Below, in pieces: positions 2,389 to 55,576 of a stretch of DNA of 64,000 nt (positions are counted from its first letter, which is position 1; each line of letters starts with the position of its first letter). The notes under the pieces were generated by a model. That model saw only the letters and a list, made by a program, of their open reading frames with translations. It had not been told where the DNA came from and did not search any database. This DNA is from Rotaria socialis (taxonomy: Eukaryota), in NCBI GenBank assembly GCA_905331295.1, contig CAJNYD010000117.1:62001-126000 (forward strand), written 5' to 3'. Position numbers and translations under genes: made by a program.

Positions 2389-2790
2389 TTAAGGATTAAA
2401 TTTCCAAGTAGATTTGGTAAATAAACAAGAAGTTGACGAATGTCGCGATTTATTGTTACTGTTCTCTTTTCCCGTGAAGTTAGGCGCAACCAATTGCTGA
2501 CAAAAATGATCGCTTGTACATCCGATGAAAAATGAAAACATAAAATTTACAATATTTATAGATTTTAATAAAAGATATGTATCATAGAAGTGATCCATAC
2601 TGTCAGTTTGCTCCTTTATCAATTTAGTGGTCGTCATTTTTATCATACCTATTCACCAAAAACAAATCGTAAATTTAACAGAAATATTTTAAAAGCTACA
2701 TTGAAAGTGAGCCCAAGACGATCATCAAGATCTTCTTGACTTCTAGGTGAAACAACTATAAGGAATTCCGGGAAATTCTTGAGAGTATTG
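2389..2790 (-). pseudogene. Decayed partial tandem duplicate of the adjacent NCS-like gene (C-terminal half)
   Basis: Minus strand reads NFPEFLIVVSPRSQEDLDDRLGLTFN, then YDKNDDH*IDKG and CTSDHFCQQLVAP. These parallel exons of the 3038-4133 gene, with an intron at the same place, an in-frame stop and phase disruption. Confidence 0.7.
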
Positions 2791-3037
2791 ATGTGAATTT
2801 CCTTCTTCTACTCACTCACAACCACACACTGTAAGAAATCATTTGTACCAGCACTCCAACATTACACTGGCTGCCTTTTTTATTATTCAAAAGCAAAACA
2901 AATTTATATCATTCAGAAAACTCTTTTATTACATGAGAACAAAAACTCAGTTAATACGGTTTCTACAATTGTTATAAAACACCGAAACGCATCAAGTATA
3001 TGAAAACTAACTTGAACAATGTCATGCCATGTGGTTA

Positions 3038-4133
3038 TCATTTGCGCACGTCTTCTTCGTCGTAAGGAGCAAGCAAGTGGCGAATAAAATGGTGGCTGTG
3101 GCATCTAATAAACATACAATGAGAAAGTACAAAACCGATGCATATACAATGGAATTAAAAATACTTGTCAATTGCTTCTTCTTTACTCAATTTATTGTCA
3201 CCATCTTTATCACAATCTTTCATTATTTTTTTTGCTACTTTCTTTGGGTCACTGTTACGTTTATTCTCAGTTGCGCCAACAAGATCATACTGAAAAATCA
3301 AAGAACGAAGTTTGGTTTATTTTTCGATATTAATTAAAACTGTACCATAGCAGTGATCATTACTGTCAGTTCTCCTTCATCAATGCCCTCATCGCTATGT
3401 TTCTTATACCTGTATATCAAAAAGATCGTAAATCGAACAAAAGAATTTCATACATTTACATATCGAACAAGACGCTAACGCGGTCCTCAAGTTTTCCCTG
3501 ACTTCCAGGTGACACAGCTATAATAAAATCCGCGAAATTTAGTGAATCGTCGCCAATGCTATTTTGATCCACACACATAGCGCAATAGTTCTGCATTTTT
3601 GTTTCTCTCTGCATTGTTGTTTCTTTCCTGTTGTTTGTAACTTTCGAACCATTTCTATCATTATTACCATTGCTAGCGTATGTGTTAAAGATATAACTAA
3701 AAATTATTAAATATTTTTGAAATTGAATGGTACTCTTTGATCAGATTTTACTTGCAAAAAAAGTCTGCTTTCTCAGGCCGACAATATTGCCGCTGGCATT
3801 CCTTAAATTTGTCCTTGCTAAGTTTACCACTGGGACAATCATGGAGAAATTCCTGATATTACAAGAAATACATGAAGAAACAAAACAATCATCAACTCTC
3901 TACTAACCGCATGCCATTCTTGTATTTCTTTATATGAAAAAGAAAACAAATAGATGAGAAGAAAATGAAAGGAAGAAATTACCTTGTTCAGATAGCTTAG
4001 TGACACATTCAAGTATGTCAATGTCTGAAATTTATGAAATAAAACATTAAATTTTGGCATCAATCAATTTAAGCTACGCACGTTGCTTGCATACTTTTGT
4101 TGGCCCAGATATTTTAACTTGTTTATTACCCAT
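3038..4133 (-). CDS. Neuronal calcium sensor (NCS-1/recoverin/hippocalcin family) EF-hand protein, multi-exon
   Basis: Spliced translation: MGNKQ...EQEIQEWHAEFLHDCPSGKLSKDKF...NFADFIIAVSPGSQGKLEDRVSVLFDMY...YDLVG...MKDCDKDGDNKLSKEE...LLAPYDEEDVRK*. It has an N-terminal MG (myristoylation-type), the CPSG motif of NCS EF1, and a canonical last EF loop. Confidence 0.85.
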
Positions 4134-4301
4134 ATCAAATGATAGTTCCCAGTGAATAGTGAACGATTAAAATTTAGAAAATCTGAAGGAAAAGTTTAAT
4201 TTTAATATTCTTCGTTGTAAATTTGTGAATATTTATAGCATCGTCGGTGGCATTTGTAAAACAAAAACAGAAATGAAAAAAAGCACAATGGTCTCAGCAA
4301 G

Positions 4302-5033
4302 GGTAAACTCAACTTTGATCGACAGTAAAAATGTCGACAGCTAAAAATGTCGAAAGTAAAAATGTCGACAGTTAAAAATATCGAAAGTGCAATATGTCGA
4401 AAGAAATTTATAAAAATAAAATTAAAAAATCTAAAAGAAGGAGTGTTTTAAAAGATATTCGATGAATACATTATTATTGTAGGCAGTGGCGGATCTACCA
4501 GTTAGGCTACCCGGCCATCGCCGCCCGCTTAAGAAACTTTTTCGATTTTCTCCAGCAGATATGAAACAGAAAATAGTCGTTCTGTCTCAACTAGACTTGA
4601 AAAACCGTTTTTTGGTCAGGAGCGCTACCCCCTAACAGATTTTCGGGATCCGTCACTACATGTAGGATGGATGGCGACTTATGTTCGTTTAGATCTATCA
4701 TTGATCTATCAGACATTGGTCACTTAGTACAATGTAATAGAAAAGAATAAGACAATTATTCTTCAATTATTCATTATTCGAGTGATAAATATACATATGG
4801 AAGCCGCCACGGAATCGGCACGCAACATCAACAGTGATTAAAATTTCATTACTTCGAATAAGGGACAACCTCTTTTAATAATGAATCAATTCTGAACACG
4901 ACATTTTTCATGAATACCTACTCAGTTTTCGATATTTTTACTTTTTCGTTTTTTCGACATTTTACTGTCGACATTTTTACCGTCGATATTTTTACTGTCG
5001 ACATTTTTACTGTCGACCAAAGTTCAGAGATTC
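4302..5033. mobile_element. Non-autonomous DNA transposon with tandem-repeat TIRs (MULE/foldback-like)
   Basis: Left end carries repeats of gtcgacagtaaaaat (4311-4390); the inverted repeats atttttactgtcgac lie at about 4930-5024. The element is flanked by direct repeat ctcagcaag at 4293-4301 and 5034-5042. Confidence 0.85.
4484..4658. mobile_element. Nested hAT-like MITE
   Basis: Termini cagtggcggatc ... gatccgtcacta, with imperfect 8-bp flanks attgtagg / catgtagg. Confidence 0.65.
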
Positions 5034-18893: not shown

Positions 18894-21800
18894 ATGACAG
18901 GAATAATCAAACGTATTTCGAAGTGGTTGAAGTCAGAGATAGAAATATCAGAAGCTGCAAATTATGTCGGAAGTGTTTTTCATGATGATAGTGATGAACA
19001 ATCATTTTTCGATGTAGTCTTTTCTAGGTTCGAAAATTATGATCAATCGAATCAAGCTCATGGAAACAGGACTTTCTCAGAGGATATTGATTTTATTATT
19101 CAATGTGCCATAGATAGTTTAACGTCGTCCGAACATTTATCTCGACACTCAAAGCAAATTCACGTGTTCTTTTATATTTATCGTCGAACTGCTGAATACA
19201 ATGAGTATAAAAGGCGATGCAATACTCAACTGAAGGAATTTCAAGAGAAACTGCTCGAGCGGTTAGGACATGTGTTCGAATCAACTAAGGGCTGTGACCC
19301 AAATCTGTCTACAACAAACAAGGATCTAATAGAACGGATAGACATTCGACAACATCTGGCCACCGTTACAGAAATTAAAGATATCGGAAAATTGAATATA
19401 TTCTTTGCTCTTTGTAAATTATCCTTTCAATCATCGTTAGTGATGAGCAGTAGTATTCGTCTGCAGTGGATGGATGTATTGAAAATGTGTCAGTGGAATA
19501 TTTCAGTCATTGACTTTGTTTCACAATACTTGGAATGTAAATCAGCATTCGAACAATGCCCACTAGATATATCTGCATTGATTTATCTCACACGAAAAGC
19601 ACAGTCATCGACGAGTGTTGACTTGCCAACATTTGATATTCTTCATAGCTTTCTAAATGATTTAAACTTAGATTATAAAGAATTCTATGGTCGATTTTTA
19701 AGTATATTCGGTGAGGGTATTAGGAAACCTTCTTGTAAACAATCAAAAATTTCCCAACTATTTCGAATTTTAAGCACAGAAGAAGATTTATTTCCGACAT
19801 ATTTATCGACGTATGCATCAGGCGTGTCACCTGATCACTTATGGGAACTATTTTTAAATTTAAGCGCGAATGGCGACATTAATGAAATCATGCAAAAACA
19901 TCTTAGTTCGATTTTAACCCAGAGAATGCAATATATTAGCATTGAAGTATTCAAGCATTATTATGTGTGTGCCGAATGCTGTTTACCAAAAATCAAAGAT
20001 GAAAATCGCCAAGTATTTGTTGGAATACTCGACACTGTGCTCCAAGGATTTCTCAGCAAACAGCGTAACGATCAATCATATTCCTGTCAGTTTACAGAAT
20101 ATCATTTAAAAGAATTCCTAAATATCGCTCTTAGACTATCACCGACACATAGTCTTCAACATCCATCTTGTTTACTCATTATACGGCATTTATTATTTAA
20201 ACGAGATAACTACGACATAGCTATATTTGAAAAAATCAAACGTCTGTTTGCAAGATCAAATAGTCTTGATAGAAATTTATTTCAAACAGTTGAACCTGCT
20301 AGTATAATAAAAGATGAGTGGTTCATTGATTATATGTTTCATATACCTAACGATTGGTTCATGCTAAGCAGATATGATTATGACGATCTCGCCGCCGCTC
20401 ATCAGAATAATAGTTGGTCACTTTACATTTGGTCACGACTTATTCAATTGAGTCTGTCAAAAGTAGATACTAATAAATGGAACGAAACAGTTGCGCAACT
20501 AAATCACTGGATGATCAATGTCGAGCGTAATAAGTACACTGCCAACGACACTTTGACAATTATTTTTGTCAACACTGTATTTGATATGGCTATTTCCAAG
20601 AATTCGAAATCTGTTTTGTTTGCTCCGAATATCGGATCAATACTGAAATATATTTTAGATGCCAAACAAAATAATGATAAGTTAATTGATATAAAGCAAG
20701 TAGATGATTTCATTCAAAAAGTAAATGAATCAATCAAGGATATTTTATCACTAAATAGTAAGTTCCATTTATTAGAATTTCTTGTATGCAAGACTTTTTG
20801 TAATCTTCAATAATTTAAAGGTAGATAAAGATAATTAAATATTAACAAATTTCTCCGCAGTCCAACTGTCTATTAATACGATAGAAAATTTCATGCTTAC
20901 CTACAATTGTTTCCTATAATGTCTAGTAGACGACTAGTAGAGTATTAAAGTTATATCGGATCTATGAAGTTTTTGTCACATTAGTTTTATATTGTGTCCG
21001 ACGTTTTTTGCAATGATATTCCTCACAGAAAAGTTGACCACGAACCCTTGCTGCGTTCAATGAACAAGTTCATATTGCTCGTAAAATGGCGAAATTTATT
21101 TTAAAAAAATGATTTCGAAATATCTAAAGCGTCAGTTATAAGACAATCATTTATTGTGAAGTTCTATTTTTGTAATTACAGGCACACGTAAAACATATAA
21201 TGATCTGTTATGTATATCGAACTTTAGCTGCTTTCTTCCGTTTTGCGATTTGAAAGCTATGCTCATTTCATCAGATCCACAGCGTTATAAATTTCCTGTT
21301 ACACCATTGCAAATCCTTACCATCGTTTCCGATGACAGACCGAATGATATTGACATATCTATTACTGATCAAAAAGAGACATTCTTCTGCTGTTTTATAC
21401 AACAAGTCGTTAAATGGTTAGAATGGTTTGACAAATTTATTGACATTTTTCAGCATGTCATTGAATGGCTTAGAGTACGCAAACTACAGAGAGCTGAGCA
21501 ATTGCTTAGTGATATACATACAATAAAAGATGATTCAATGACCAACGTCATTAAAGCGAAAACAGTCATTCAAGATATTATCGATTTACTAAAACCTTTC
21601 AAGAATCTTCACCGGCTTTGTTATCTGCTAAATTGTATGAATTCATTTGAAAATAGTTATCCTGGAACTTTAACCAGTCATGACCAATGGAAATCTCATA
21701 TTGAAGAACTAAAACGAGTCCATTCGAATAATACATTCACAGTCGCGGCTAATGCTAAATATGAACATCCACACTCGATCGGTGCTCGTCGAGTTGTTCA

Positions 21801-24800
21801 CTGGTCACTTGCTTGTGAAAGACTTGAATGCAACATTAGTATAGAATATCGAATTAATACACCTCGCACCAAGAGTTACAATTGTTTTTCTAGGCAAAAA
21901 GTTCCTCTTGATAAGAAAGTTTTAAAAGGTGAATTTAAAACACAACGAAGTGGCAATTTGGTAATCACTATTGATAATCAAACTGGAGGTGCTCCACGGA
22001 CGATTTGGTATCAAATAAAAACAATGCATTTTTCAACATGCCATCTGTTTGATGGTTTTTTCTCTATGCTTCGCCAACAGTATTTCCAACAATCAAATGA
22101 AAATATTCAAGTCACTGATTTAAGTGATCTAATTGATAGAGCGTTCGAGTTTATTGATAGTCTTTTAAATGGGGACATCACTTTAGAAGACATGGAATAT
22201 CTTAAGACAGTTTTTCATGATAAAAATATAGATGTTAAAGAAGAAGTCAAGATATTATTTTCTAATCGTTTAATCGCAAACAATAATTGTCAAACAACGC
22301 TAACGACAGCAACAAACATCATATCACAAGGTCAAAATGAACAAGATATTGAGCAAGTTTGCGAATGGTTACGAACTTATCAATACTATAGTCATCTTAG
22401 TATTATAGCCGATTGTGTACAAAAGTTTGATATTATTTTAAATATTGATCAAAACGATGAATCAATTGAAAAGTTACAAGAAATGATTAAAAACGACAGC
22501 TGTTCTCTTAAAAAGATCTCAGAAACATATAAAGATCTTTATGAACGTTTTGGAAAGTTAACGAATCATCATTTGCAATTGATTAAAACGATTACTGAAT
22601 GTTTTCATGTCGTTCAAATATTGAAAAAATTTGATTTATATTCAACTGAAGGATTACGGCGATTTCTAGAATTGCGCGATAATTTAACAACACAATTTCA
22701 ATTACAAGAACGCAACAATATGATTCTTAATTCATTGATTATTAGTTATGCTTTATGTGAACCCTTTGTTCATCAAGTAGAGAATTTAGAAGGATTCGTA
22801 GATAATGTTGCGAAGTTATCCAATATTGATGAGAGTTCATTGGAACATATTAAAGGTAAACAAAATTCTTTTATATTTTCAAAAATCGAGATACTTTCTA
22901 AGCAAAAATGATGGTTGCAAAAAAGGACTTGCAGCAAACAGTTCTCATGTATTTCCGCTATTTTCAACAGTATACAGTTCAGTATTTTATTCGTTCTACG
23001 TAAATTTAATTAATTAATTGCCCATCGAAGATCGTGACCGATACGGCTCGGAGCTGTCTGTAATGAGTCTGGAATCGGTCGGTCTATCGGTGACTCTTTG
23101 ATACTAGAAAAAAATTCAACTATAGACCATTTTTTACCATTAAGAACAAGAAATTTCGAATAAGCATATTTTATAAAAAAATAAGGAAAGAAACCAGTTT
23201 GAAATCTGCACCGGCATAGATCCCATCTCTGGATTGTGCGAACAACTTTTTGAATACGAACACGAAATAATTTAATCATTTTCTTGTAGTTGTCAATGAT
23301 AATATACAAACTGTAAACATGTGGTTATCAGCAGAAGCAACAACAATCTTGGATAATGCTCTCATTACTATGGAACATTTATACAAAACCGGTACAGTAC
23401 AAATTCACTTAAGAAATCTAATGAGCGAGAAATCGTATTTTGAAATCGCATATTCAATTGACACGTTAACAACAGAATTCAGCAGATCAAATGAATTCGA
23501 TTGCGACGAAAAAGATAAAAACATACAGAAGCAAGAGACAATAAAATTCGCATTGTCAATGGATGATATTGATGATCATAAACGTCAATTAACATTTTGT
23601 AATGTTGATCTAAAGCAATATATGATTGACAAAAAGATTCTATTAGAAGAACAATTAAAACTATTGGATACAATTGAAAAAATTTATTTCATTCTTTTAA
23701 AACTTGAAAAAGCTGGTCATCCAAATTTCCAATTGAAAGAATACAGCTATGATGTTTATGACCGACCAGGTGAGATTTTAGATCGGTAACAATTCGAATT
23801 TTTAGTTTACATGTTTCGCTTTTAGGTACAGTGAGCAAAATATTATCCGATCTGAAAAATAATGAAGAAGGTAGCGAACAAAAACTTAAACAAGAGATTA
23901 GAGACCGAACGAAATATTTTCAAGCGAAATTTACAAAATTCGAAGCTGATTACGACATATGGATAAGAGATCTAGAAAAATTACGATGTCGAAGTCCACT
24001 GTTACAATTATTTTCAAATCATCAAGTTATGATTATGTTCATTTTATTGACAACTTCAGCAACAGAAAATCAAGTTCAACAAAAATTCTTAAAGAAATTA
24101 TTTTCCTTGGACGATCTTAGCAAAAAACAAGAGGAAAACTTTAAGTTAACTGTTCTCTGTTTAATTCATTATTTGCAATCATTGAGAATCAAAGATTGTA
24201 ATTTATCTAATCCTAATGTAATCAATCTTTATAACAAATATAAAATAGAATACAATCATTCGAAAAATGAAGATCTACAATCAGAAAACTTACAAAAATT
24301 GTCTTCGTTTTTGGAAGATTTTTTCAATAAAGGAAAAGAATTACTAGCAGAAAGTCCAGCAAACACTGAAAATCAGCAATATCTCGTCACATTAAATTCT
24401 CCGGAACAAACATCAGATAAAGTTGACATTCAGAATGACTTTGACCTGGACACATATTATATTCTTTTAAATATTTTCAACGATCGATTGCCAGCTGATT
24501 ATCAATTACTACGGTGTTCTGTCGCAACAGATGACGATATTCGCTTATTTTTTTCACGTGTTCGAACTTTTCCACGTTTGACATTTGCCGTCATAGATAT
24601 TGACAAACTGCATCACCGACTTCGCGAGTTGGTGTTAAATGAACAAGATTCATTAGCAAAACAATCTGAGCGACACGGAACAATTTATTATTTTTCAAGA
24701 CAATTAATATCGTTCAGAAAAGGTGTTCGACCATTTTACATACGACCGCAACATCGAAATTCTTCTCATGCTTACTCACAATTTACGACGTTACTAAGAA

Positions 24801-27800
24801 ACAATAATTTGCCATCGCCCCAAATTCAAATCATATGTGGAAAAGCTGGAATTGGTATGAAATTCTATATTTCTTATTATTTTCTTTCCCCGAGCAAAAT
24901 TCTTTGTTTAATTTATAGGAAAAACTCATCGCATCAAAACAGCCTGCAACGATCATAATACGTCATGTGTAAGCATTAATGACAAATTAAATTTGTCATC
25001 GTTGATCAGTACACTGCTGTCATTAGAATCAAAAACGTCAAGTAATCAACTATCCATCTATTTTAATATTTCTATTCATGCAAATTTTAAACAATTGAAT
25101 CATGCATTTTTTTCTCTATTTGTATGCAATTCATTAAATGATCTTACTAGCGGTCTTACATTTTCACCGTCCAAAGAAAAATCATGGAAATTTATTGTTG
25201 AAGTTCCCTATGCCGATAAATACAGCACAACCATTAAGACGAATTTCGATAGAATATTACCAATACTCTCTATTATATCGTCAAATAATTTCGAAGAAGT
25301 TACAGATGAAAATTACCAACTGTTCATTGGCGATGAAGAAAAACTTATGGCAAAATTTCTCAAAGCTTATGAAGATCAAACGATTGATCAATTTTTAACA
25401 CAAGATCCGTTTGGCAATGAGAAACCTGTGCATTTCGATCCATTAACAGATCATAATGAATGTCGTTCTTACATTTACAACTGTATTAAAAAATACGCAC
25501 CGGAGTTGCCAAGAAATAAAATCTTCGAACTCTCATTTACTAAATTTTTATATCGCCGGATTCGATTCTTTACCGGATTTCACTTTTGTCTCAATATGAC
25601 TACTGAACATCTCGGCTCAACTGCTATGAAGCAAATGATATACGAGGCAAAACATCTAACTCAAATAAGTTTTCTTTCAAGCGATTACCCTCGTATTTAT
25701 CTTGTCTACGATCCAGCATTTTCACTACACATATTACACAATGGCTGGAATGCAGTTCCTTTAACATTACAAGCTCTTTTCAGACATGTCGATCCACAAA
25801 AAAGACCAGAATATGGAGATAAAAATTATTTTATAACATGTTTATCCTGGCTAATGGACATTCCCTATACTCTATTCGAACGCATAATGATTGACGCAAA
25901 TTTTATTTTGACAGAAAATTTTACGTATAAACTTTTTCATGTCCATGAAAGAAAATTAACAAAATTAGCTCTTATTATTGAAGGTGAAACAGGTGTTGGG
26001 AAAACATTTCTTCTCAAGTTCTATTCATTGCTACTCAATGCCAACGTCGCTAATAGTAAATTAGAAGATAATCCTGCACCGAAAATCCTTGAACGTACAA
26101 GTCGGTGGTTATTAACACATATTATTAGAGAAATACGACAAAGTGAACCAAATTTATTAAATCTATTCCTTCAAGAAATACAACCGGAGCTACTTGGTTT
26201 TGAAAACACCGGCGAAGATGATCCTACGAATCATCGATTATTATCGGGAATAGAAAAATCCTTACTAATCTCAGATTATAAGCATGGTATTTTACAATAT
26301 ATATGGGCAACATTCATTGGCATCGCGCATGAAAATGCAAATGATGTTGCAAAAAAACTCCTGGTGGAATTGCACGAATTCGTAATATCATTTTTAAGCG
26401 AGTATCCATTAATTCAGCCTAGTCCCCAATTACTTAATTTACTAGAAAAATCATTTCTACCAACAACTGAAACATCGATTGAAATTTTCAATGAATTTCT
26501 AACTCAGACGAGTATTAAACCATTATTTTATCGTCTTCTCTTACACCCTGGTATAACGGAAGAACAAATCAAAGATTTTATGCTTCCTATTTCTCAATTA
26601 GCTGAACAGATGCCTAAAATTGAATTGGTCGTTTTTTTCGATGAAGTTAATACGTCTTCTTGTCTTGGCCTATTTAAAGAAATGTTCATGGATGGAACAT
26701 TACATGGAATTAATTTACCGAAAAATATCTTCTTTACTGCAGCGATTAACCCATCAATAAATCCTAATGGTGTTGCTCAAAATCAGGCTAAAGATGGTTT
26801 TCAAGTTCATCGTCTTGATTATATCGTTCATGAACTACCACAATCACTAGATAGTCTCAAAGTTTCTTATGGAATATTGGATTCGAATACATTAAAAGAT
26901 TATGTCAAACAAAAAATAGCAAAATTCACTGTTGTCTCAACAGGCGACTCCACTAAGAAATTACCATTGATAAAATATGTACAAGAAAAGTTTACTCAAT
27001 GTATTCTCGAAGCACACAGATTTTGTGAACAACGTCTCGGTATTCCTTTTTGTGTTCGTTAAATCTATTGAGATTACAAATTATCTATAAGAATAGTCGT
27101 ATAGGAAATGATTTCGAGCAAAGCCACGCTAATGAGAGGAGTGAAAATATATTCTCGACTATACACGCATGACAAGGAAAAATTTGTTTTGCGTAAAATT
27201 TGGAAATGACAAGTGTTGACCCCAGATACTAAGGTTCCCATTTTTCTTTCAACAAACTTTTCTAATCAGAAAACATGAGTCCATACTAACTAAGCTGAAT
27301 TTCAAAATATCGTTTGTGACAATCAATGCTCAAAATCCTAAAAGCGGCGAAATATTTTTATCTCATTTAGGACGAAATTCTGTATCACAAAGAGAAATCC
27401 AAAGATGTTTCAATCTAATTGACTTCTTTTGGAGCAAGAAGAATGAAAACAATAATGATGACCCGGATCCCATACCATGTATTGTTTTAGCATTAGCGTT
27501 ACTTTATTATTTTCGACTTCCAACAACCGAAGACAATGAACAACGAAACGATCGTAGTACACCATCACGTGAAGAATTCGGTGACGTTCTTTCTAAATAC
27601 ATACCGGGCTTTGTTGAAATTATTCAAAACGAACTTGAACAGTTCGTGAATACTGATCATTTTGTTATTCCACATGGAGTAGCTGTTAATCAAGCCGTGA
27701 GTCTCTCATAATTTGTTCTATAAAAAAAAACAGTTTTATTGCTTTATTTTCTCCATAGATTCGCGAACATATTTTTTCAATTGTCATTAGTATCGTTACT

Positions 27801-30800
27801 CAAATACCATTATGCATAATCGGTGCACCAGGCAAGTGTTTTCCAAAGAATATTTCTAGATTCGATGAACAAAAACATTCACTTCTAGGTCAATCGAAAA
27901 CACTTTCATTTCAAATCGTTTTACAAAACCTACAAGGTTCACAATTATCAGCAAAAGAATTTTGTAAACATTTACCAGCCATCGATCCATTCTTTTGCCT
28001 TGGGTCGAAATATAGCCGATCTGAAGACATTGCAGCTATATTTGAACGAGCTATCAAACGTGAACAACAATACAAGCAAAATCGGATTGACACAAGATGT
28101 GTAAGTTTCTTTTTAACTCTTTTTTTCAAGTGGCTGCCGAATATCAATCTAAAAGCGCCGGCACTTGCGAGACTAGCAACTGTTTAGTTTCTTCACCCGG
28201 ATACAGGTTCGATAGTAAACCTTTCAATAATAGAAAGAAATGAATGATAGATATTAATTTAGTTTTTCTTATTGAGAATTTCCAGGAGTCTATTCATTAG
28301 CGGAAACTAGAATCAAAGCTTCGGCACTCACACATACGCAATTTTATGTAATCACACCCTGCAGTGTATATAAAACTACTATGAAATTTGTTTAGGTTGT
28401 TTTCTTGGACGAAGCCTCGCTGCCCGACGAGAAAAAAATGGTATTAAAAGTGTTACATCCTTATTTGGATGAATGTAAAGTAGCTTTTGTAGCCATAGCT
28501 AATAAATCATTTGATGCTGCTAATGCCAATCGAATGCTTTGTATATATCGATCTTTACCATCGCAAGATGATCAAAAAACATTGGCATACGGTTGCCTTG
28601 GTTTGCCAACCGGACATGAACAACAAAATGTTAACAGAAATCTCGATAAGATAATATATGGCCTGTGCAAAGGTTATCGCCGAGTACTTTCTAGTGAAGG
28701 AATTCCGAAAATTTTTCATGATCGAGATTTTATCTACATGTTAAGAGAACTACGCTTTGAATTACCAACAACAATAACAAACGATGAAGAGACGAGTATT
28801 GGCATTATAAAACCGATTAGTTTACTGCGTGCTCTTGAAGAAAATTTTAATGGAATAAAACGAAACGAATTTAAAGAATTAGTGGAGATCTTTTTTAAAG
28901 CTGTTCAAGAAGAATCTGCTAATTTTTCTTTGCCAATTGAAGCACGACAACGAAACATTTATCGTGATATTCCTACTACTTTGCGAGATTCGATGAAACT
29001 CGATTCGAAACGCCGTCGTTTGTATGGTCGTTATAAATTAGTTATTGATGAATCGGAAGACGAAAGTGCTATAAATCTTTTACTACAAACAGGCATTCTA
29101 GATTCCGATCCTACACGAACATCGATCTTTCGAATGTCCGATTTTCCGGATGATATTAATAATGAATTACGAAATGTGGAAGTATTGTCCACGATCAAAC
29201 TATGCATGGAAACAGGAAGAACAATTGTTATGATAAATACAAGTCGAATTCATGGTTCGCTCTATGATGTTTTCAATCAAAATTTTTCAATAATGGCCAC
29301 AGGTGATACGAGAAAGATCTTTTCAAAGGTTGCAATTGGACCGAAAACAATTGATGTTGCTGTCCATGAAGATTTTCAATGTATTATTCATGTTAAACGA
29401 AGTGAATTCGAAAGTATTCCAGCCCCTTTTCTGAGTCGTTTTCAAAAATATTCGTTGAGTATCAATGATTTCTATCGTATTCGTTTACATAAACTGCCTG
29501 GCAACGAACAGGTTATTATGAAAAACGTCGAAGAGAAAGTTTCATCATTTATTGAACATTTCGGGCGAAATTATTTTTATGGTCTCAATGAAAGTACTCT
29601 TTATTCATGTCTTCTATCATTAATTAAGATCCATGAGAATGAAGAGCATTCTTTATTGAATATACACCAACATTATACACAATTGACCGTTAGACTGAAA
29701 TCGTTTATTGAACAAAATCCTACTAATACTGAACAGTGTCTTGTGAGATTCGTATTATCGAAATTAGTTCAGCTTGTTTCGCCTGAATCAATCATACTGA
29801 AATTGCCAACATTTGAAGAGAAAGTGAAACAATGGTTATGTAATTTATATTTTCAACACCAAGAGCACTTTAATTTTGGAAATTTCATTGAACAATTAGT
29901 TTCAAAACAATTTCTCAATATTGACAACGACTTACAGCCATCATCGGAACATCAAATGATACAAAATTCCCTTCATACAACAACAACAACAACAACAAAA
30001 GTGATCATATTCACACGAACATCATCCTACGTAATTGGTCTGAACGAAAAATCAAAAAATGAATTATTTACTACTAATAATAATGACGATGAAACTTCTA
30101 ATTATAGTAGACAAATCGACATTATAAATTTGGTAAGTACTCAACAGTGTCCACGTTGATGAAAAAATCTATCCGTATTTTTGCCGTAACGTTGCGGAAT
30201 ACAGCCATATCAGTGGCGTAGCCAGGGCTACGGCCATTGAGCACTTGCCCAATGTCGAAAGATCTTGATACACAAATATATTTGAAGATGTATGGTATTA
30301 TTGTGATATAATCAGGTGATGTAGAACGATGAGCCAACAATCGTTTTCTTTAAATCGAAGATTATAACACTAGCTGCTCAATGATATATCTTTTTGTCGA
30401 AACACTCGGTACCTCACCTAAATTCGCTTATGAAAAACATTTGATGATGTAGGTGATGAGATGATTCTTATATCTTTAGGATATTTTTTTAATACAAAAT
30501 ACTGAAATATTTAAAAGGTAACGAATCTACTTGTAAAACAGTGCAAAGAAAAGAGAGTAATTTCGCCTCTTATTTCATAGTGCCGAGCTTTGCTTCAATA
30601 TATATATCGGCTCCGCAATGACAATACGTCTTTAAAAAAAAAGTTGTAGCTCAATCGATTTTTGGATAGCCCATTGGTGCCCACTTCGCAAAATAATTTA
30701 GCTGAGAAACAGTCCATAACTCGAAAATTTCTGACTCCGCCACTCAACTTAGGAATTTATTTATCTACAGTTTGTCAACTATTCAGTTTCGAGTACAAGC

Positions 30801-33800
30801 AGAATCTATCCAAATAAATCAATAATTAGAAGTAATATTTCGAAAATAAAATCTGGTGAGAGAATTGGAAGTTCCAATCATAGTTCATGACTATTCAATG
30901 AAGGCAGCGTTTTAAATTATATTCTCGCTTCCAAGAACCTGTAGCCTTTTAAATTCATTTGCGATTAGGTTAATTCATATAATATTCACGTGCTTTTTAT
31001 TGGCTAATTTGAATATTTGTATACATGAACAAAATAATCCGCGCCAAGCGACTATGCACACCGGTCGTTGTTTGATTACGAACCAAATGCAAGACTTTCA
31101 CCATTTGCTAAAATCCCATGAATTTTAAAGATTTTAATAAATTATAATCACTCGAAATATTTTATTTAGAACACAATTGAAAATTCAGTTGAATTATATC
31201 ATAGATTCAACACCTATGCCGACGATACTGATAAAAATGTTTTAATGGTCATTATCGATGGTCGAAACGGACAACAACGTTCACATATTCCTTTTGTTCG
31301 ACAACTCATTGATAAAACAGAATCTTCTTACAATACGAATCATTGTTCAGAACCGAAATATTTTCTTGTGCTGGTCCATTCATCAACTCAAGATTTATAT
31401 CATCAATCATGTTTTCCATCGATATTTTTGCACAATTGGGAATTTTATTTCTTCGATACTTGTACACCAGGTAGTGCATTTCATCTTCAAAAAATGTTAC
31501 GAATTATTTTATCATCATCTCTTGATGATCAACAATCGCCGAATGTTGACAATGTTCTTTGCGATTTGAATATTCTCTTTGAAGATTCTCTATGGGATTT
31601 TTGTTCTCGAATTCAGCTTCTTCTCCCTGAACTATCAGAAAACATGTTTAAAAATGCGAAAGCCCATGAATTTTATAAACGTCAAACGAATACGCTGCGT
31701 CGCGTCAAATGTCTTAAACATATTCTTCAACAATCGAGACAATTGCAAAAACATATTCTTGATATTTATCATAAATATTTGTTAAGAAAAGAAAATTCTT
31801 CGAAAAAGATCTATAATTTAATTCAGAAAATCTCAAAAGATATTTTATGTGGTCAACGTTTCGATGGTCTCATTGATTCAATTCAATCTCAAACACGAAA
31901 TTCATTTACAAATTTTGTTTCAAACATTTTCAAATTTATTGTCAACGATTACGGATTAGAAACAATACCTAAATTATCAGCTAATAATAAAATCTACGAT
32001 TCATTATTAAATTTAATTGATTATCAATCATTTTCTGCCGACAATGAGAACGATATATTTTCTTCGTCAACAACGCGGGGAATATTTCAACTTAGTAGTC
32101 ATTATTCGTGTATACCGCAAACACCATTGTATCATCTACTTCATCAACGCGTTAAAAAACATGTAGACAATATCAAAGAAACAATAGCTCATGAATTAGT
32201 AAAACATCAAGGTTAGAATTTTGCGATATAAGAACTATCCGAAAAAAGATACTTCCGGAAGATCGTGAGAACGAAATTCGGAATGTCTAGAATTTTACCT
32301 ACGTATATAAATCAGACCTCAAGTCTTGTACTTCTAATCGTAACACAACACTATTTATGTAGTGAAGCATTTCACTAACTACATAGACACATCACTTCTA
32401 TGTCACACAAAAACATTTGTCATTGTAGAAAAATCGATAAGAATAAAATATTCTGTAAAAACGATTCATATTTCGTCCCTGTTATTTTACGAGATCCCAT
32501 AAACACATTGAACATATTAAGAGAGCCCCGGCACAAACAAATAAATTTTGTCATTTTCTTGTATAGATAATGAAGATGATCTACGTCGTGATTATTATGA
32601 TGCTCCACCACAGGTAACGACTGCGAATTATAACAATGCAAATGAGACTGAAATTGCTCAGTATACATTTGAACAATATCGAATTAAATTAATTGTTTCT
32701 ATCTTGAATGATAACGTGTTAACTGGCGCAATCTGTCAACATATTGTTCATTCCTATTCCACTGATCTTATTCGAACATTTTGTAGCATAGCCGAAAATA
32801 ACTTAGATTATGATCTTGCTCAGTGCCAACAAGCAGTTGACTTTGTTTCGCGTTGGCTGTTACTAATCGATGATAACGATCGTCAATCATTAGAAAGTTA
32901 TCTTAATAAAGACGTTTGGCATCTTGCCAACGTTTGCACATCCTTTGAATACGAACAGCACGATCTTATTTCGATGTATTCAGCATTTCGAATTATCAAT
33001 CTTATCAGTCCTGCAGATTCTTCGTATGATCATTTATTTGACGAAGAAAATATTACACGATCTAAGTTACGCGAAAAATTTTTCTATTCAATTTTCAATT
33101 ATTTATGGGAAAATCTTAATCGATTAAATACAAATGATGAAACATGGATTTATGCTTATACATTTATTTCCAAATATTATCCATCGGAGAAAGTTCTACG
33201 CGGTTTACAATTATCTGAAATAAAAAATCGAATTGAATTTATGAATTTGGCTTATTTAATATTTTTAAACGATACACTAGTTAAACCACATGAATTAATA
33301 TCGATTTTACTCAAGGAAATAAACTTTAATTGGTCATCGGTTTGTTTAAAATTACTACCGACTATTACAGATATCATTGGTCGATATTTGGAAACCAAAA
33401 ATATCGCTAATTCAACATTATTCATTGATCTTCAACAATGGACATTAACAATCTTAAAATCAACAAAACAACCTTCTCAACAGGATGTTTATTTCCTATT
33501 CAAATATATAGATCAATCAACTTGTCGATTGTCTTTACAAATGAAGCAATATCTATTCGACGAATTAATTAACATATGTCTTCAGCTTGAAGATCGAAGG
33601 AAGAAATGTTTCGATCTATGGGATCGATTTAAAATCATTCCGCATCTACTTGAATGTGTATCAAATGTTGATCATGCTGAAAATTATAAAATACCTTTTC
33701 ATCCGTCAATAATTTCTGATGACGATGCTGAGATGCAAGCAAGGCCGATTTTATTTGATTTATATTTCTTTAATCTAAAACGTCAAATGACGAATGAAAA

Positions 33801-36800
33801 CATCACAGCAAGTCTTGCCAATAAGGGAATGCTATTGAAATTGCCAACAATTAAAAACACACGTTCAATGCCTATAGGAGAAAATCTTTTCAAGCAATCA
33901 AGAGATTATCTTCGAGTTAGAATGATTGCTTTGCTATTATGTGAGAATAAATTGAACTATGGCGAGATGAATGATGTCAATAGTATCATGTCAGCAATCA
34001 TAGATGAATTTTTATTCATTGACGAACAGCCGACACAGTTTAATGATCATCTTCAACTGTTTCTATCGACAATCATAGAGAAACGATCATGGAATTTTCT
34101 TTTAAATTTATTAAGATCTGAAAGTATTCAACATTTGAATAGCCGATGGGCGACAACTTTATATGATTTACTTGAGCTGAAACAAACACAGAAACAAAAT
34201 AAATATTTACAATATTGCCATCAGATACAATTTACGTTATCTTCAAAAAATGATTCATCCATATTTCCAAGACTTCATGTGCCCTATGAAGAGCTGAGAA
34301 AAATTATTGATATTTGTCTTGAAAGTGAGACTGAAGACAATCAATGGGACATTTTATCAGAGTGGATTCAATCAAAACTTGATTCGGATTCAGTTCCTTT
34401 AGAATTAAAAGAAATCAAGGTGATGTTATTATTAGTGATTTACTACGAATATTATTGTTATAATCAATTATCGATCATAGATTCTTTGTTAGATTTAATT
34501 GAAAACACTTTAAAATTATCATCTGTCGAATTACGATTATTTCGTGTTTTTATAAGACCCGAGCAATTTATGATTGGATACGCAAGCGATAATGATGATA
34601 AAAATTTCCTCAATGATTTATTCAAACTTGATTCTAATGACGAATTCGAATTAAGTTTACGCCACATGCTTGTGAATCTTGTGGCCATGGTTTTACTAGG
34701 TGGCAAAGAATCGTTTCTTTGGACATTTATGTTTCAACCGTTGACATTACAAAATACATTTGGTTAGTAGATTTTATTCATTTTCTCACTAACAAGGTGT
34801 GAGTATTAACTAAACTTTGATTCTAATTAGGATTTGGGTCAACTACACGGCACACAATTCAAGAAAACAGTGTTCACTATGATTGTGGTTGTATTATTTC
34901 ACAAAATGGTGACTTATTACAATTCTCACAGAGAGGAGACACCAGCGGATTGAATGTACCAGCCGTTTATGTTGCCTTTTTTTCGACATTTGGTGCATTG
35001 GTAAGTTTTGCTTTCAAATTTTTTTGTTATAAATTCTTTCACTGTAAGGCGTGGCATCTTTTATTATTTGATGAATCTGTTCAAAATTTGCACGGACCAA
35101 TTCTTGCACCAGGAGCTATTGCTACTGACGAACCAGCCCATCGGCTTGCCGGTCGAAGTATTCGAGCGAAAGTTTGCCATTTTGTCTGCAGTAGATTATT
35201 ATCAACATTTCACTTTTTGTCCATTCAATTGAATCAAAATGATGCTTGTATTCTTCTAACTCGTTGTTTTGAACGTATGGCACATCTTTCGACGCATAAA
35301 AATTCATGGATTAAGTCTGTATACAGAACTAATGATGCTGAAATTAAAGCTGAACAAGAATATAAAGATCAAGTATTTTATTTTGTTTATAATAATCTAG
35401 TTGAATATAAAGGGCAGGTCAATGAATTAAATCTACAATCACAAATTCAAAGGAATCTACAAAATTTTACTGATCATATGCCTATTGTTCTTCAGTTTAC
35501 ACATTTTAAAACAGAATTAAATCGTCTAACAGATTCAAAAGTATCACTTAAAATTTTACAAAATACTCTCAGTTCTTTACCGTTTTTAAAAATAACAACA
35601 TTAATATACGATCTTAGTCAATTCTATCGTCTGTTGCATCAAACATATGCAAAATTAATTGAACGAAATGAATTTTTAACAATAACGTTACAACAATTGT
35701 ATGATCGAGGTCAAATATATTACAATAGTTCTTATCAGCAGCAAGATCAAAATGAGGATAAAACACATCGGTCTATTATTGAAAATGGAATTAAAGCTGT
35801 TAACGAGTATCATCAGTTTTCTGATGGTTTTATTCGACCGGGTGCTTGTGATGAAACACAACGTTTTTCAATCATCGGATGGCAAACGCCGGTGAATTAT
35901 TTAATTACCAATGAAAATCATGACGAAGGAGATATTGTTATGCGTATACTCAGGTTAGTTTGGAGACGTGACTGAATTCCGTGAGTTCTGAGTCATTTTC
36001 CATTCTTTTTTAGTGTCCTAGTTGATTATCACAACAATTTATTAGAATTGATAGAGAACGAATTGGATAAAAATCAGAATGCTATTGTGGGCCCTTTGAA
36101 AACTTTGATCAAGAAATTAACATCAAAAAGTGTTTCGATTTTGCAAGTTGCAAATGATCGTACTGGTGTTATTAATTTGAACGATGAAGATTGTCTATGG
36201 ATCGAACAGTTGTCCCAAGCAAGTGTTATTAGTAATGAAAAACAATACTTTATTACAGCAGAGTCTCGATTATCGTTCGATTTTGTCTATGTTCAATCGC
36301 AGATTATTCGAACATATCTTCTGTATTGTCGCATTAACTACAGTCATATTATTCAAAAATATCAATTTCTGACAAACAGAATAAAAACAACAACAACAGA
36401 TAATGAAAGTTTAGATCTCGAAGAAAAATATTTAGTTCGATTAAGTGATGAACAACTCGAAAATGAATGGAGCTATTTGAAAGATATTCTATTACATAAA
36501 CTTTATCACGCCCATAAACTTCTAAGACAGATAGCATTGACATTGAAAACTCATCAGAACGATTTCTCATTGAGTTATCTTGTTGAATTTGTTCGAACGA
36601 CTGATAAAGATAATGATCTTCTTCAACAATTAGAACAACTTGAAATCAGAGATTTTCAATTACGTTATATTGATCATGTTATCGAAATTTATGGAGGATC
36701 TATTAGTGGATTTCAGCATTTGTTCACCGATATACCACCTTTACTTCGAGTTCGAATTGATCCTCAATTAAATGACGAACTTATTCAACAATTAAATAGC

Positions 36801-39333
36801 AACATTCTTGGCATCGATTATAACAATGATCTAGAAAAAATTCAGATGCAAATTCAAACAATCACAGAATTTCTCAGTGAATTGAAAACAATTGAAGATA
36901 ATCTTCAACAACAATCTACTCAATCATTGGTTCAAACGTGTGGATATTTAGCAATAGCTAATCCAATACTCTCATGGATACCGGATAAAATAAAATGTGA
37001 AAATTATGTTGAACTTTACATTCATTTGATACGCGCGAGATCAAAACTGCAAGAACAAAAGTTAAATATCGAAGAACAAAAAATGAAATTATGGGAAGAA
37101 AATTCTAATTTCGAAGATCAACAAGGAATTCGCTTGCATCAACAATATATAAATCCACAATATGATAGACAAATATCCAACGATCTTGAAAATGAAGATA
37201 TTCAATCTACACCTTTGATGACAATACATTTAACAGCAGTACCATGTTTGTCATCAATATTTTCTCAGCAAATACATAAATATCGAGAAGAATCAGTGGC
37301 GCTGGAACCAGCCATTGTAGCTAAACCACAAAAATATTTTATTACGCATCCAAATGGCGAGTCAAAACCTGTTCTATGGAAAAGAGAAGCTATTTGCGAA
37401 CAATTTAGAAAATTATTTGATGGGAAGCAATACGATTATGATTCATTGGTTGTAGTCGATAAAAATGAAATGTTTTTTGATTTTACCAAGGATAATTATC
37501 GTTTATCAGATCCATCAATTTTAGAATATCATATCATTGAAAAACAGCTATTGATTCAAACTCAAATACATTTTCGAACACAAGTCTACGAATATCTGGC
37601 TACATCTAAATGTACTATGTCGACAATTATTCGTCATTTTATTGATAGTCAACAATTGAGATCGTTATCATCAGATATTATTCTATGTTTCTTTGATGAA
37701 TATGGCAAATGTATTGACGATAAAATCATCAATCATTTTTGCATGGAAGAGTCTAAGACAATTTCAATTTTTGTGACCGAAGAAACATTGGATGGTAACG
37801 CACTCTATGAACTTGCTTGCCAATACAAAAAAGGTAATTGACATATTCTCGGAGTAGTGTCGAAACTAGCAAGGGTCCTATCTTCCTCTCCTTATCATAG
37901 TGAGCGCATTCGGCTGTGTCACTTTCTTAAAGCTTTTGAATTCTTCATTTAGCGTTGAAAACTGGGTGGTTGATATTCTAATTAAAGTTTTCTTTTTGCT
38001 TATAGATGAAACCCCGATGATAGATTTGTTTTCTTCAACAACAAAATGGCAACAAATAAAACTTTGGTTAAAAACTACAATAGATCCTTCTGTCGATGAC
38101 TATGTGTTTTTTATGAGAGAGAAGGAAATAGTTATTGATGATGATCGAATTCTTTCAACGACAACAACAGAATCAATGATAATCGATGTAATAAATCGAA
38201 ATAGCCTGAGAAAAGTTATTTTAACATTTGAAACAAATAATCAAACTGTTGACGTGTTAAAATCAATGAAGATTTCGTCGTTATTAAATTTATTGGGTAT
38301 ATCTTCTGGTGATTGTGTTCTTGTATTGACAGGTGAAAATGAACTTAAATTAATAAAAGATGATTTAGAAAAATCTGTTAGTAATTATTCAAGCAATGAA
38401 AATGACTTACTTCATTTGCAAGTATTAATCTCAATTCAAATAACAAAATATGATGATAAGGAAAACATCAATATACCTTTGTCAAATAGAAATATAACTA
38501 TTGAACAATTATTAAACTTAACTGAAAAATCAATCGATGTTTACAAATATTTAGCAACAAATGATACGAAAAAAATTATTAATTCTAATGAAAAACTTTC
38601 AAATTTAAATCAAACTAAATTTATTCTTGTGCAAGAAAATGAAACTTGTGTGGTATCTATTAAGAAATCGAGTAATAATCTACAACAACGATTTATCGTT
38701 TTCGCTACACTAGCTGATGTTTATAAAGAAAATATTTTGGATCAATATCTTATGTATTCAAATGATTTTGTACCATCAAAAGATATTCAGTTACTATCAT
38801 TTAAGTCAGAATCATCAATTCAATTTATTGCTATCGATGAAAATTTACCCATTACTGTTACTGTACAAAATGATGAAGCGCATATGTCGATTCAATTTAA
38901 TTGTGATCATTCAATTACAGTTGAACGTCTCTATGCAATTGCATGTCAACTATTTTGTTTGAACAATGAGTATTATCGTTTAACTATGGAAGACGTTGAG
39001 TCAATCGACGGCGATGTTTCTCTAAAAGATATTGATGAAAATATGAGTGAAATTAGTTTTAAAATAGTATCAATAGCCTCTCAATATTGTTCGATCAAGT
39101 ACTTGAATCAGATCATTCGATTGCCCTGTTGCCGAGATACATTGGTAATGGCCATAGTTAAAGAAGTACTACAGAAATTAGATAAATCAGTAGATAATGT
39201 CAAGATATATGATTTGATAGCATTGGATGATGATCAAACAGAAATCGATTTCGATTATGTAATAGATGATGTCATTGGATTGTTTCCAAATGGTACAACA
39301 ACAATATCACTGGAATTGAAGAAGAAAAAATGA
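18894..39333 (+). CDS. RNF213: Giant RNF213/mysterin-like AAA+ ATPase, about 5,658 aa. 15 exons: 18894-20757, 21182-22855, 23290-23769, 23826-24854, 24919-27039, 27371-27696, 27759-27831, 27889-28100, 28396-30132, 31170-32211, 32567-34762, 34831-35000, 35049-35953, 36014-37833, 38006-39333
   Basis: All exon phases are compatible (16,977 nt total). RNF213-type motifs occur in order: GKAGIGKT, IIEGETGVGKT, VVFFDEVNT, FTAAINP, YIVHELP, SVSQREIQRC, IIGAPGQSKTLS, VVFLDEASL, LKVLHPYLD, FVAIANKSFDAANANR, RDFIYMLR, KLCMETGRTIVMIN..IHGSLYDVFNQ, APFLSRFQK, LVDYHN. Confidence 0.9.
30211..30745. mobile_element. hAT-like MITE remnant in intron 9 of the RNF213-like gene
   Basis: Termini cagtggcgtagccag ... 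ctgactccgccactc. It accounts for about half of the unusually long (1 kb) intron. No TSD is visible. Confidence 0.5.
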
Positions 39334-54114: not shown

Positions 54115-55576
54115 TCATTCATTATCTTTGGGTCTTGAACTAAGTTTTGCTTTAGCTGCAAGCGGTGATTTTTGACTCCACAGATTTCCCCATTTGGTTT
54201 CATAAGAATCTGTAGTGAAGAATGGATGTTCTTTTAATTTCGTCATTCCACCTGTTTCTTCACTACCAAGTCGTTCTTCGGGTTTAAAACGCTAGAAAAA
54301 CACACGAAATGCATTTTATTTGAATGAGAAAAAACTGCCGATATCAGCAGTAGCACGGTTCAAAAATACGTACGACAAGTTTTTGTATAAGATCACCAAT
54401 AGTATCTGGAAAATCATCAGGTAATTTATAAGCAACACGAACTACAGCATTGAAAATATCATATTCATGACTAAACTAATTCAAATGAATCCTCCTGTTT
54501 CTGTCTATCAAATGAAAGATCACTTACTGGCCATGAAATAAATGTTTACCTGTAGCCATTTGATAGATAACACAACCAAGTGACCAAATATCAGATCTAA
54601 AAGCGAAGGCATTCTTTTCAAACTATGAATGACAATTGCATTTCTAACAAACCCGATATGCACCGGACCACGTTGTAGAATTTCAGGTGCTACAAATTGA
54701 GCTGTGCCAACAAATGAATTTTTTCGTTCGACTGATTTTTTCTCGCCATTTGAATTATCAGTTCCGTCTGTTGCAGATACTTCATTATTATCAATAATAA
54801 CTGCAGAACCAAAATCAGTTAACTGAATATGCATATCATCAGTTAAAAGAATATTCTCCGGCTGGAAAAACAAAACAATTATATAAGCCAATTGCACGAA
54901 AAAACAATGATTTACTTTCAGATCTCGATGGATTATATTTCTAACATGAAGTTTTTCGAGTGCTTCAACAAGTTCAGCAGAATAAAAACGTACAATGTCT
55001 TCTTGAAAATGACCGGCATCATTGATGTATTGCAGAAGATCACCGTTCGAACAGTATGTTAAACCAAAATCTAAATAAAACACAGATACAAATCATCACA
55101 ACATTTAATAAACTCATAAATAAGAATTTTTCTTCTGAACACCCCTTTGTGTTTTTTCTCTACGAAACAATTTTAAAAAAATGTGTACTTACAAAGTGTG
55201 CTTTCATTTTGAAATGTACAATAAAGTTTAACCGCAAAAGCGCAATCGTTTAATCGAGTAAGAATTTCTTTCTCTCGAAAAACTTCTGGAGTTTTCTTCA
55301 ATCGTTTGATTAATTCTTTGTCGACCGCTTTGACTAAAACAAACCGTTAAAAGTTCCCTTTTAGAAAATGAAAAAAAAATATTCATACTAGCTAATTCAC
55401 GATCTGTTGCTTTTTCAATGGCAAAAAATACCTAAGTAATAAAGCAAAACAATCGATTGAAAATAGAATGTTTTTCTTCCTACTGTTGAATAAGAACCAG
55501 TGCCAATTTCTTTTACAAATTTAAAATCTTTTACGGACTTTTTTGGAATATTTGTTGAAACAGAACTTGTTGCCAT
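54115..55576 (-). CDS. PDPK1: PDK1 (3-phosphoinositide-dependent kinase 1)-like Ser/Thr kinase, multi-exon, kinase domain only
   Basis: KKSVKDFKFVKEIGTGSYSTV, FGLTYCSNGDLL, IIHRDLKPENILL, TDFGSA, RKNSFVGTAQFVAPEIL, ERLGSEETGGMTKLKEHPFF, then a stop after ...RPKDNE at 54115. Confidence 0.85.

What the first reader, a model, noticed from the sequence alone, without database searches (positions are those of the whole stretch)
18894..39333. Giant RNF213-like AAA+ machine with a remodelled architecture (GOLD insert, no RING/RZ, poly-UBL tail)
Seen: 15 exons splice in phase into an intact ~5,658-aa ORF with the RNF213 AAA motif order. Known: mammalian RNF213 is a dynein-like AAA+/E3 ligase that ubiquitylates pathogen surfaces (e.g. 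LPS) through its RZ finger. Inference: this copy keeps the motor but has a different sensing and output set, so it may be an uncharacterised invertebrate cell-autonomous immunity effector or scaffold.
Basis: partly seen in the sequence, partly recalled or inferred. Interest (0 to 1): 0.85.

Follow-up and report, generated by a model that had tools for sequence, protein, structure and literature searches.

The report
Finger-less RNF213 cousin in rotifers
An intact 15-exon gene, closest to bdelloid rotifer genes, encodes a 5,658-residue distant cousin of the human immune ligase RNF213 that lacks both zinc fingers but keeps a deeply conserved Asp-Cys pair where the catalytic finger sits, so it is possibly a ubiquitin ligase that works without zinc fingers.

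Summary
Fifteen exons (18894-39333) splice to 5,658 aa without a stop, and independent bdelloid gene models are collinear. The AAA ring, E3 scaffold and CTD are homologous to RNF213. RING and RZ fingers are absent, a GOLD fold is inserted, and about eight beta-grasp repeats follow the CTD.

The interpretation needs correcting. This is not a remodelled RNF213 orthologue: grouping with animal RNF213 is rejected (p-AU 4e-51). It belongs to an old finger-less clade shared with sponges, Picozoa and a malawimonad, expanded in bdelloids; only GOLD is bdelloid-specific. The RZ site is not empty: a short loop carries HYDCGC, whose Cys is kept in 76 of 85 finger-less relatives. A second Cys (C4575) is kept in 87 of 90.

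Best reading (0.45): an ATP-gated ligase using this cysteine. Main rival (0.35): a ligase-dead scaffold with structural cysteines; computed alignments place the Cys on a zinc ligand, and two E2-contact residues are changed. Expression, immune role and horizontal origin are untested or unresolved.

The scan has reported other RNF213-like variants on other DNA. My look-ups returned none on this rotifer family or this motif.

The parts
18894..39333 (+). Whole gene, 15 coding exons: 18894-20757, 21182-22855, 23290-23769, 23826-24854, 24919-27039, 27371-27696, 27759-27831, 27889-28100, 28396-30132, 31170-32211, 32567-34762, 34831-35000, 35049-35953, 36014-37833, 38006-39333; 5,658 aa
   Evidence: open frame; junctions match independent bdelloid models
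18894..21645 (+). N-arm (aa 1-776); homologous to the N-arm of non-rotifer clade members, not detectably to that of RNF213; no CBM20 hit
   Evidence: hhalign 97% against clade, 0.4% against RZ-type; 0 Pfam families in exon 1
21646..22029 (+). GOLD domain (aa about 777-904), ACBD3/SEC14L-like, found only in bdelloid members
   Evidence: model and Foldseek; GOLD_PATL1_C E 0.0046, below cut-off; 20 hits among 218 long proteins, all bdelloid
22030..30126 (+). Stalk/linker and AAA ring (aa about 905-3170), collinear with RNF213 from aa about 932
   Evidence: hhalign 99.9%
24839..24926 (+). AAA2 Walker A (GKAGIGKT, aa 1678-1685, split by intron 4); RNF213 has the equivalent binding-only site
   Evidence: PMC7311170 passages
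25983..26645 (+). AAA3 Walker A (aa 2038) and Walker B (FFDE, aa 2255), 217 aa apart against 65 in gecko RNF213
27822..28413 (+). AAA4 Walker A (aa 2520, split by the GC-AG intron 27832-27888) and Walker B (FLDE, aa 2596)
32567..37055 (+). E3-back/shell/core scaffold and CTD (aa about 3520-4957), RNF213 fold, no RING
   Evidence: 8 of 8 Foldseek hits at E<=0.001 are RNF213, model of 70%-identical homologue P0062; Z 24, 498 aligned, rmsd 11.2
34875..34892 (+). HYDCGC motif (aa 4267-4272; D4269, C4270) in a short loop at the RZ-finger position
35847..35849 (+). C4575, a second near-invariant cysteine (GAC), in a low-confidence loop of the model
37326..39330 (+). Tail of about eight 70-85-aa beta-grasp-like repeats (aa 5048-5658) after the point where RNF213 ends; no C-terminal di-Gly
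   Evidence: P0069 TUG-UBL1 above cut-off

Best explanation
This intact rotifer-type gene encodes a finger-less member of the RNF213 superfamily that possibly works as an ATP-gated ubiquitin ligase, using a conserved loop cysteine (C4270) in place of the RZ zinc finger. Shown: RNF213-type ring with intact AAA3/AAA4 motifs, RNF213-type E3 scaffold and CTD, no RING or RZ, Asp-Cys at the RZ site, GOLD insert, beta-grasp tail. Inferred: ATP binding at AAA3/AAA4 opens the E3 module as in RNF213. An E2 docked near the CTD would pass ubiquitin to C4270, possibly with C4575 as a second station. The bdelloid-specific GOLD domain would target a membrane. The non-conjugatable UBL repeats would recruit partners. 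A role in defence against intracellular microbes is inferred only from RNF213 and from the expansion of the family.
For: Position: the loop lies between the same two anchors as RZ (hhalign 99.4%, E 1e-21). Conservation: Asp 83 of 85 and Cys 76 of 85 finger-less rows that cover the site (by my count from the listing, 33 of 33 bdelloid and 43 of 52 non-bdelloid, including Naegleria, Willaertia, amoebozoans, sponges, Gefionella). Other Cys columns in the region are 22-59% conserved, apart from C4575 at 87 of 90. The scaffold and CTD, the E2-docking domain of RNF213 (PMC12075652), are kept. Walker A/B and the motifs I read as sensors and arginine fingers of AAA3/4 align with RNF213. Relatives with the same Asp-Cys carry ubiquitin-pathway modules: USP domains in P0184 and P0189. 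Picozoan-subclade members carry an Rcat-like finger, and 2 of those 4 have Ser in place of the Cys. The RZ nucleophile sits in a similar acidic-Cys-Gly context, by spacing from the numbering in PMC11549300.
Against: The computed alignments (MAFFT, hhalign) put D-C-G on the last zinc-ligand pair of RZ, not on its nucleophile; the catalytic register is by eye only. In RNF213 zinc binding is required for activity. The loop is confidently ordered in the model (block pLDDT 92 and 80), whereas RZ is a flexible appendix. Mouse W5097 and E5108, needed for E2 docking, align to Gln and roughly Ala here, though several non-vertebrate RZ-bearers also lack the Trp. The His before the motif is not conserved family-wide (62 of 97 non-gap rows, duplicates included). 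The C4575-equivalent is also present in vertebrate RNF213, where the passages read give it no catalytic role. Nine rows lack the Cys. Rows are related and were picked by an HMM seeded mostly with motif-bearers, so the counts overstate independence.
Confidence: 0.45

Rival explanations
1. Ligase-dead ATP-switched scaffold. D4269/C4270 (with H4267, C4272 or C4575) form a structural or metal site, a remnant or forerunner of the RZ zinc knuckle. Output goes through the beta-grasp tail, which recruits a separate ligase, p97/proteasome or small GTPases to a GOLD-bound membrane.
For: Computed register matches a zinc ligand; the loop is ordered; E2-contact Trp and Glu are changed; tail repeats resemble RA/TUG-UBL binding modules; the post-CTD slot is swappable (SAM, USP+SAM, UBL).
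Against: No four-ligand set is conserved family-wide. The whole E3 scaffold and CTD are kept across very distant eukaryotes, including members without this tail.
Confidence: 0.35
2. Non-ubiquitin function: a midasin/dynein-like remodelling ATPase, or other cysteine chemistry such as acyl transfer or redox sensing, with no immune role.
For: No ubiquitin-pathway catalytic domain is recognised in the window protein. The auto-inhibitory IR3 loop is short (25 against 40-42 residues in animal RZ-type rows) and the IR5 Tyr position is Asn, so the ring may be regulated differently.
Against: The only structural and sequence relatives in the PDB are RNF213. USP and Rcat-like modules recur in relatives.
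Confidence: 0.15
3. The model is wrong: two or more transcripts, or an unexpressed copy.
For: Many database models of the family are partial; splicing of this locus has not been seen in RNA.
Against: The frame is open over 16,977 nt. Six full-length single models from Adineta and Rotaria cover all segments. A full-length transcriptome-derived relative exists in Gefionella (5,592 aa).
Confidence: 0.05

Closest known systems
RNF213 / mysterin (PDB 6TAX, 7OIK, 8S24, 9JWG)
   Same: Stalk, AAA ring with a binding-type AAA2 and catalytic-type AAA3/AAA4 motifs, E3-back/shell/core and CTD, collinear over about 4,000 aa.
   Different: Only about 25% identity in the ring; no RING, RZ or CBM20 hit; unrelated N-arm; GOLD insert; about 150-aa insert in AAA3; short IR3; E2-contact Trp changed; about 700 aa added after the CTD; separate clade.
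Uncharacterised finger-less RNF213-like giants of Gefionella okellyi, Picozoa, Oscarella and Sycon (P0093/P0124, P0123, P0121, P0122)
   Same: Same clade (SH-aLRT 100), Asp-Cys or a variant at the RZ site, C4575 equivalent, homologous N-arm, long C-terminal tail.
   Different: No GOLD. Their tails are only weakly linked to the rotifer tail (hhalign E 0.007 against 0.54 or more for shuffles; weak beta-grasp Pfam hits in 3 of 7, none for Gefionella, Oscarella, Sycon or Picozoa). Picozoan members add an Rcat-like finger.
ACBD3 / SEC14L / p24 GOLD domains
   Same: Fold of the inserted domain.
   Different: 10-16% identity; ligand unknown; embedded in the N-arm of an AAA giant.
ZNFX1 RZ finger and MYCBP2 RING-Cys-relay ligases
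   Same: Cysteine transthiolation; the two-cysteine idea resembles MYCBP2 (relay detail recalled from memory; MYCBP2 is mentioned).
   Different: Those use zinc-binding domains; none is present here and no homology was tested.

Membership tests
RNF213 superfamily (scaffold) | Dynein-like AAA ring with AAA3 and AAA4 catalytic motifs | tested here: met
RNF213 superfamily (scaffold) | E3-shell/core and CTD fold | tested here: met
   (model of homologue P0062)
RNF213 proper (animal orthologues) | RZ finger with CHCC zinc site and Cys/His dyad | tested here: not met
RNF213 proper (animal orthologues) | RING finger in E3-back (vertebrate type) | tested here: not met
RNF213 proper (animal orthologues) | Groups with animal RNF213 in an AAA-core tree | tested here: not met
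   p-AU 4e-51 (24 rows, LG+G4)
RNF213 proper (animal orthologues) | CTD E2-contact residues (mouse W5097, E5108) | tested here: not met
   profile alignment at about 16% identity, so the register is approximate
RNF213 proper (animal orthologues) | N-terminal CBM20 | tested here: inconclusive
   no Pfam hit, N-arm not alignable; exon 1 was not folded
Transthiolating E3 ligases | Ubiquitin thioester on a catalytic cysteine | not testable with these tools
   candidate C4270 by position and conservation only
GOLD domain | GOLD beta-sandwich fold | tested here: met
Ubiquitin-like (beta-grasp) domain | Profile match for repeats 7-8 | tested here: met
   PDB profile hits to ISG15, PCGF1 and a myosin are all E>0.05
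Ubiquitin-like (beta-grasp) domain | Profile or fold match for repeats 1-6 | tested here: inconclusive
   no relevant Pfam hit; R2-R4 hhalign 82%, R3-R5 31%, shuffled maximum 2%
Bdelloid horizontally acquired genes | Nests with non-animal sequences, vertical descent rejected | tested here: inconclusive
   sister to unnamed environmental proteins (SH-aLRT 95-98); bdelloid+sponge not rejected, p-AU 0.055

The most novel reading that the evidence does not exclude
The RNF213 scaffold carries an ancient zinc-finger-free catalytic cysteine (Asp-Cys loop, perhaps relaying with a second invariant cysteine), from which or onto which the RZ finger was built. This would define an unrecognised class of transthiolating E3 spread across eukaryotes. 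Bdelloid rotifers took it from a protist, added a GOLD targeting domain and expanded it into a family of defence ligases.
Probability: 0.2. Interest if true: 0.9.

Novelty: new variant of a known kind. Interest (0 to 1): 0.7.

Why it matters
RNF213 is a central cell-autonomous immune ligase whose chemistry is tied to its RZ finger. A widespread sister family that keeps the ring, scaffold and CTD but replaces the finger with a conserved Asp-Cys makes two questions testable with point mutants: what the ancestral RNF213 machine did before RZ, and whether the scaffold alone supports ubiquitin transfer. In bdelloids it is a candidate multi-gene defence family. No RZ-bearing bdelloid protein appeared in these searches, which were seeded from this clade and are not exhaustive.

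Tried and rejected
RNA: no RNA holder listed; the one run offered held next to none of the words and laid only five contigs with matches under 40 bases, which is no evidence either way. No genome is held for the window, so paralogues in this assembly were not counted. An E3-region profile against PDB sequences found nothing relevant. The ESM Atlas gave no usable hit for the Asp-Cys region; it did not answer for the GOLD or tail queries. Viral contigs: 113 pattern matches, none confirmed. Prokaryote genomes: 7 loci, all in one MAG, broken into exon-like ORFs and closest to sponge-type SAM-tailed members, so read as eukaryotic contamination. The careful tree did not finish; all trees are quick searches without bootstrap. 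One AU run with the mixture model returned no answer and was repeated with LG+G4 on a different 22-row set. Weak Pfam hits (SpoIISA, Pil1, Fis1, CHDCT2, DOMON) are below cut-off and were rejected as chance. RNF213 terms were absent from 15 of 16 supplementary files of the rotifer infection study PMC11258130 (one scanned PDF unreadable); this shows only that the name is not used. VIA-align on the GOLD model could not be run. No complex prediction was sent, because no rotifer E2 or ubiquitin was in hand.
Full report
OBSERVATION. Splicing at the best GT/GC-AG sites gives 15 exons from 18894 to 39333, 16,977 nt, 5,658 aa and no internal stop; intron 7 is GC-AG. The closest relatives are bdelloid rotifer proteins (Rotaria, Adineta, Didymodactylos): 31 of 37 hits are 58-82% identical, 26 of them named as bdelloid and 5 unnamed. 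Named animal RNF213 is about 26% identical. Eight independent NCBI models align across the 14 junctions; each junction is spanned by at least five, and one pair of models uses a different donor at intron 12. Six models of 5,450-5,789 aa cover every segment. The gene is therefore one unit by homology. RNA evidence could not be obtained.

ANATOMY. Exons 5 and 9 hit only RNF213 in the PDB. Profile comparison with RZ-bearing RNF213s is collinear from aa about 932 to the AAA3 Walker A (99.9%) and from AAA6 to the E3 core (97.9%), through the E3 core and shell (99.4%) and through the CTD to the point where RNF213 ends, aa about 4957 (98.7%). An AlphaFold model of the 70%-identical homologue P0062 (aa 3972-4612 of the model; pLDDT 84.5) matches only RNF213 at E<=0.001 (8 of 8) and gives Z 24 to the human E3 module. 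Walker A motifs lie at 1678, 2038 and 2520, and Walker B at 2255 and 2596. This fits the RNF213 pattern of a binding-only AAA2 and catalytic AAA3/AAA4 (PMC7311170, passages). Two auto-inhibitory elements differ: the IR3 stretch is 17-25 residues in 10 bdelloid rows against 37-45 in 10 RZ-type rows, and the IR5 Tyr position is Asn. The RING aligns to a gap. Exon 2 folds into helices around a beta-sandwich that matches ACBD3 GOLD. A GOLD HMM from bdelloids hits 20 of 218 long proteins, all bdelloid, and none of the long non-rotifer clade members. The N-arm before it is shared with non-rotifer clade members (97%) and not with RNF213. After the CTD come a conserved WEE motif, a linker and about eight repeats delimited by eye. 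The last two match beta-grasp families; the first six are only suggestive. There is no terminal di-Gly, so the repeats are not conjugatable modifiers.

WHAT FAMILY. An exhaustive search with the E3-core region gave 63 hits. The distant ones that carry names are from Gefionella okellyi, Picozoa, Oscarella and Sycon. Two full-length searches added more sponges, amoebozoans, heteroloboseans, Diplonema, a choanoflagellate and canonical RNF213s. In AAA-core trees (124 rows FastTree; 65 rows; 40 rows with the mixture model; rows thinned by hand, which dropped 2 gappy rows) bdelloids form a clade of at least seven cross-genus paralogue groups by my reading. That clade sits inside a larger one with Gefionella, Picozoa and sponge proteins (SH-aLRT 100). 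Forcing bdelloids with animal RNF213 is rejected (p-AU 4e-51). Their nearest neighbours are unnamed environmental proteins (P0033, P0034; 95-98), not the sponge members, which hints at horizontal gain. Bdelloid+sponge is not rejected (p-AU 0.055), so I put transfer at about even odds. No other named bilaterian fell in this clade; those searches are word-limited and many hits are unnamed. All trees are short searches without bootstrap.

THE RZ SITE. Between the two anchors that flank RZ, finger-less members have a loop of about 45 residues carrying Asp-Cys (HYDCGC here). From 123 E3-core HMM hits at E<1e-10 without RZ, I dropped 23 cluster duplicates and one misaligned row. Of the remainder, 85 cover the site: Asp 83, Cys 76. 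Ninety cover C4575: Cys 87. Eight other Cys columns score 22-59%. HYDCGC is exact in 28 of 33 named bdelloid models; four of the five misses stop before or skip this region and the fifth is too short to reach it by my estimate. Some long relatives gave no E3-core hit and are not counted. Three registers against RZ are possible. The computed ones place D-C-G on the last zinc-ligand pair. By eye it also resembles the nucleophile context (acidic-Cys-Gly; human C4516 by spacing, PMC11549300 passages, applied) or the first ligand. Against catalysis: the loop is ordered in the model, RZ activity needs zinc (10.1101/2021.05.10.443411 passages), and the CTD Trp and Glu needed for E2 docking in mouse (PMC12075652 passages) are changed. 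For catalysis: depth of conservation, the retained scaffold, USP domains on relatives with the same motif, and an Rcat-like finger in the Picozoan subclade, where 2 of 4 have lost the Cys. An earlier scan note on Rcat plug-ins prompted that last count. C4575 lies in a low-confidence loop and has a counterpart in vertebrate RNF213 but not in all RZ-bearers.

MECHANISM. I commit, at 0.45, to an ATP-gated transthiolating ligase that uses C4270, is targeted by GOLD and the N-arm, and recruits partners through the tail. A ligase-dead scaffold gets 0.35, a non-ubiquitin function 0.15 and a wrong model 0.05. Every step beyond domain content is inferred. An immune role rests on analogy with RNF213 and on family expansion.

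LITERATURE. Of ten full-text searches, seven were aimed at rotifer, invertebrate or protist RNF213-like proteins and listed no paper describing this clade or motif; I saw listings and abstract starts only, and subscription journals are not covered. I read passages, not whole texts, of PMC11549300, 10.1101/2025.10.14.682297, PMC12075652, 10.1101/2021.05.10.443411 and PMC7311170. I searched the supplements of PMC11258130 (no RNF213 term in 15 of 16 files) and PMC12220480. The latter has one Adineta vaga row, FUN_001796-T1, whose best hit is Naegleria, then Exaiptasia RNF213, with base mean 5.4 and no significant change; the file was cut when stored, and the row's identity to this clade was not tested. 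bioRxiv supplements, including RZ alignments that may list divergent homologues, were not seen. The MYCBP2 relay detail is recalled; tree labels for P0175 and P0183 were guessed from id prefixes and carry no weight.

VERDICT. A real, intact gene; a new variant of the RNF213 kind rather than an orthologue. The most testable new element is the conserved Asp-Cys at the RZ site. Interest 0.7.

Noticed in passing
window:10152-13397 (-): Uninterrupted 1,082-aa stop-to-stop frame with collagen-like GXY repeats at the start and DUF7932 (E 6e-25); higher GC than its surroundings; possible horizontally acquired gene.
   Followed up: partly
window:5683-6990 (-): 436-aa open frame with no Pfam hit at E 0.001.
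   Followed up: partly
window:48427-60983: Ordinary neighbours: EGF-repeat gene (48427), HSP20 (52295), protein kinase (54523-55092, minus), galactokinase (56174-57560), Macro-domain protein (59499-60983).
   Followed up: partly
window:39830-39990: Short low-complexity array of ccct-a/g-ccct-like units about 500 bases after the stop codon.
   Followed up: no
P0184, P0189, P0191; P0168, P0172, P0174, P0176, P0182: Finger-less relatives end in other modules after the CTD: USP deubiquitinase with or without SAM in amoebozoans, SAM in sponge-type members. The post-CTD slot looks swappable.
   Followed up: partly
P0103, P0111, P0123, P0155, P0167: An RBR Rcat-like finger is inserted about 160 aa after the Asp-Cys loop in the Picozoan subclade; a similar motif occurs in P0167.
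   Followed up: partly
L001-L007: Seven intron-broken RNF213-like loci on megabase contigs of one MAG labelled Nitrospirales, closest to sponge-type SAM-tailed members: likely host DNA in a bacterial bin.
   Followed up: partly
P0151: Adineta steineri model with Ig and FN3 domains at the N-terminus of a family member; real fusion or merged gene model not tested.
   Followed up: no
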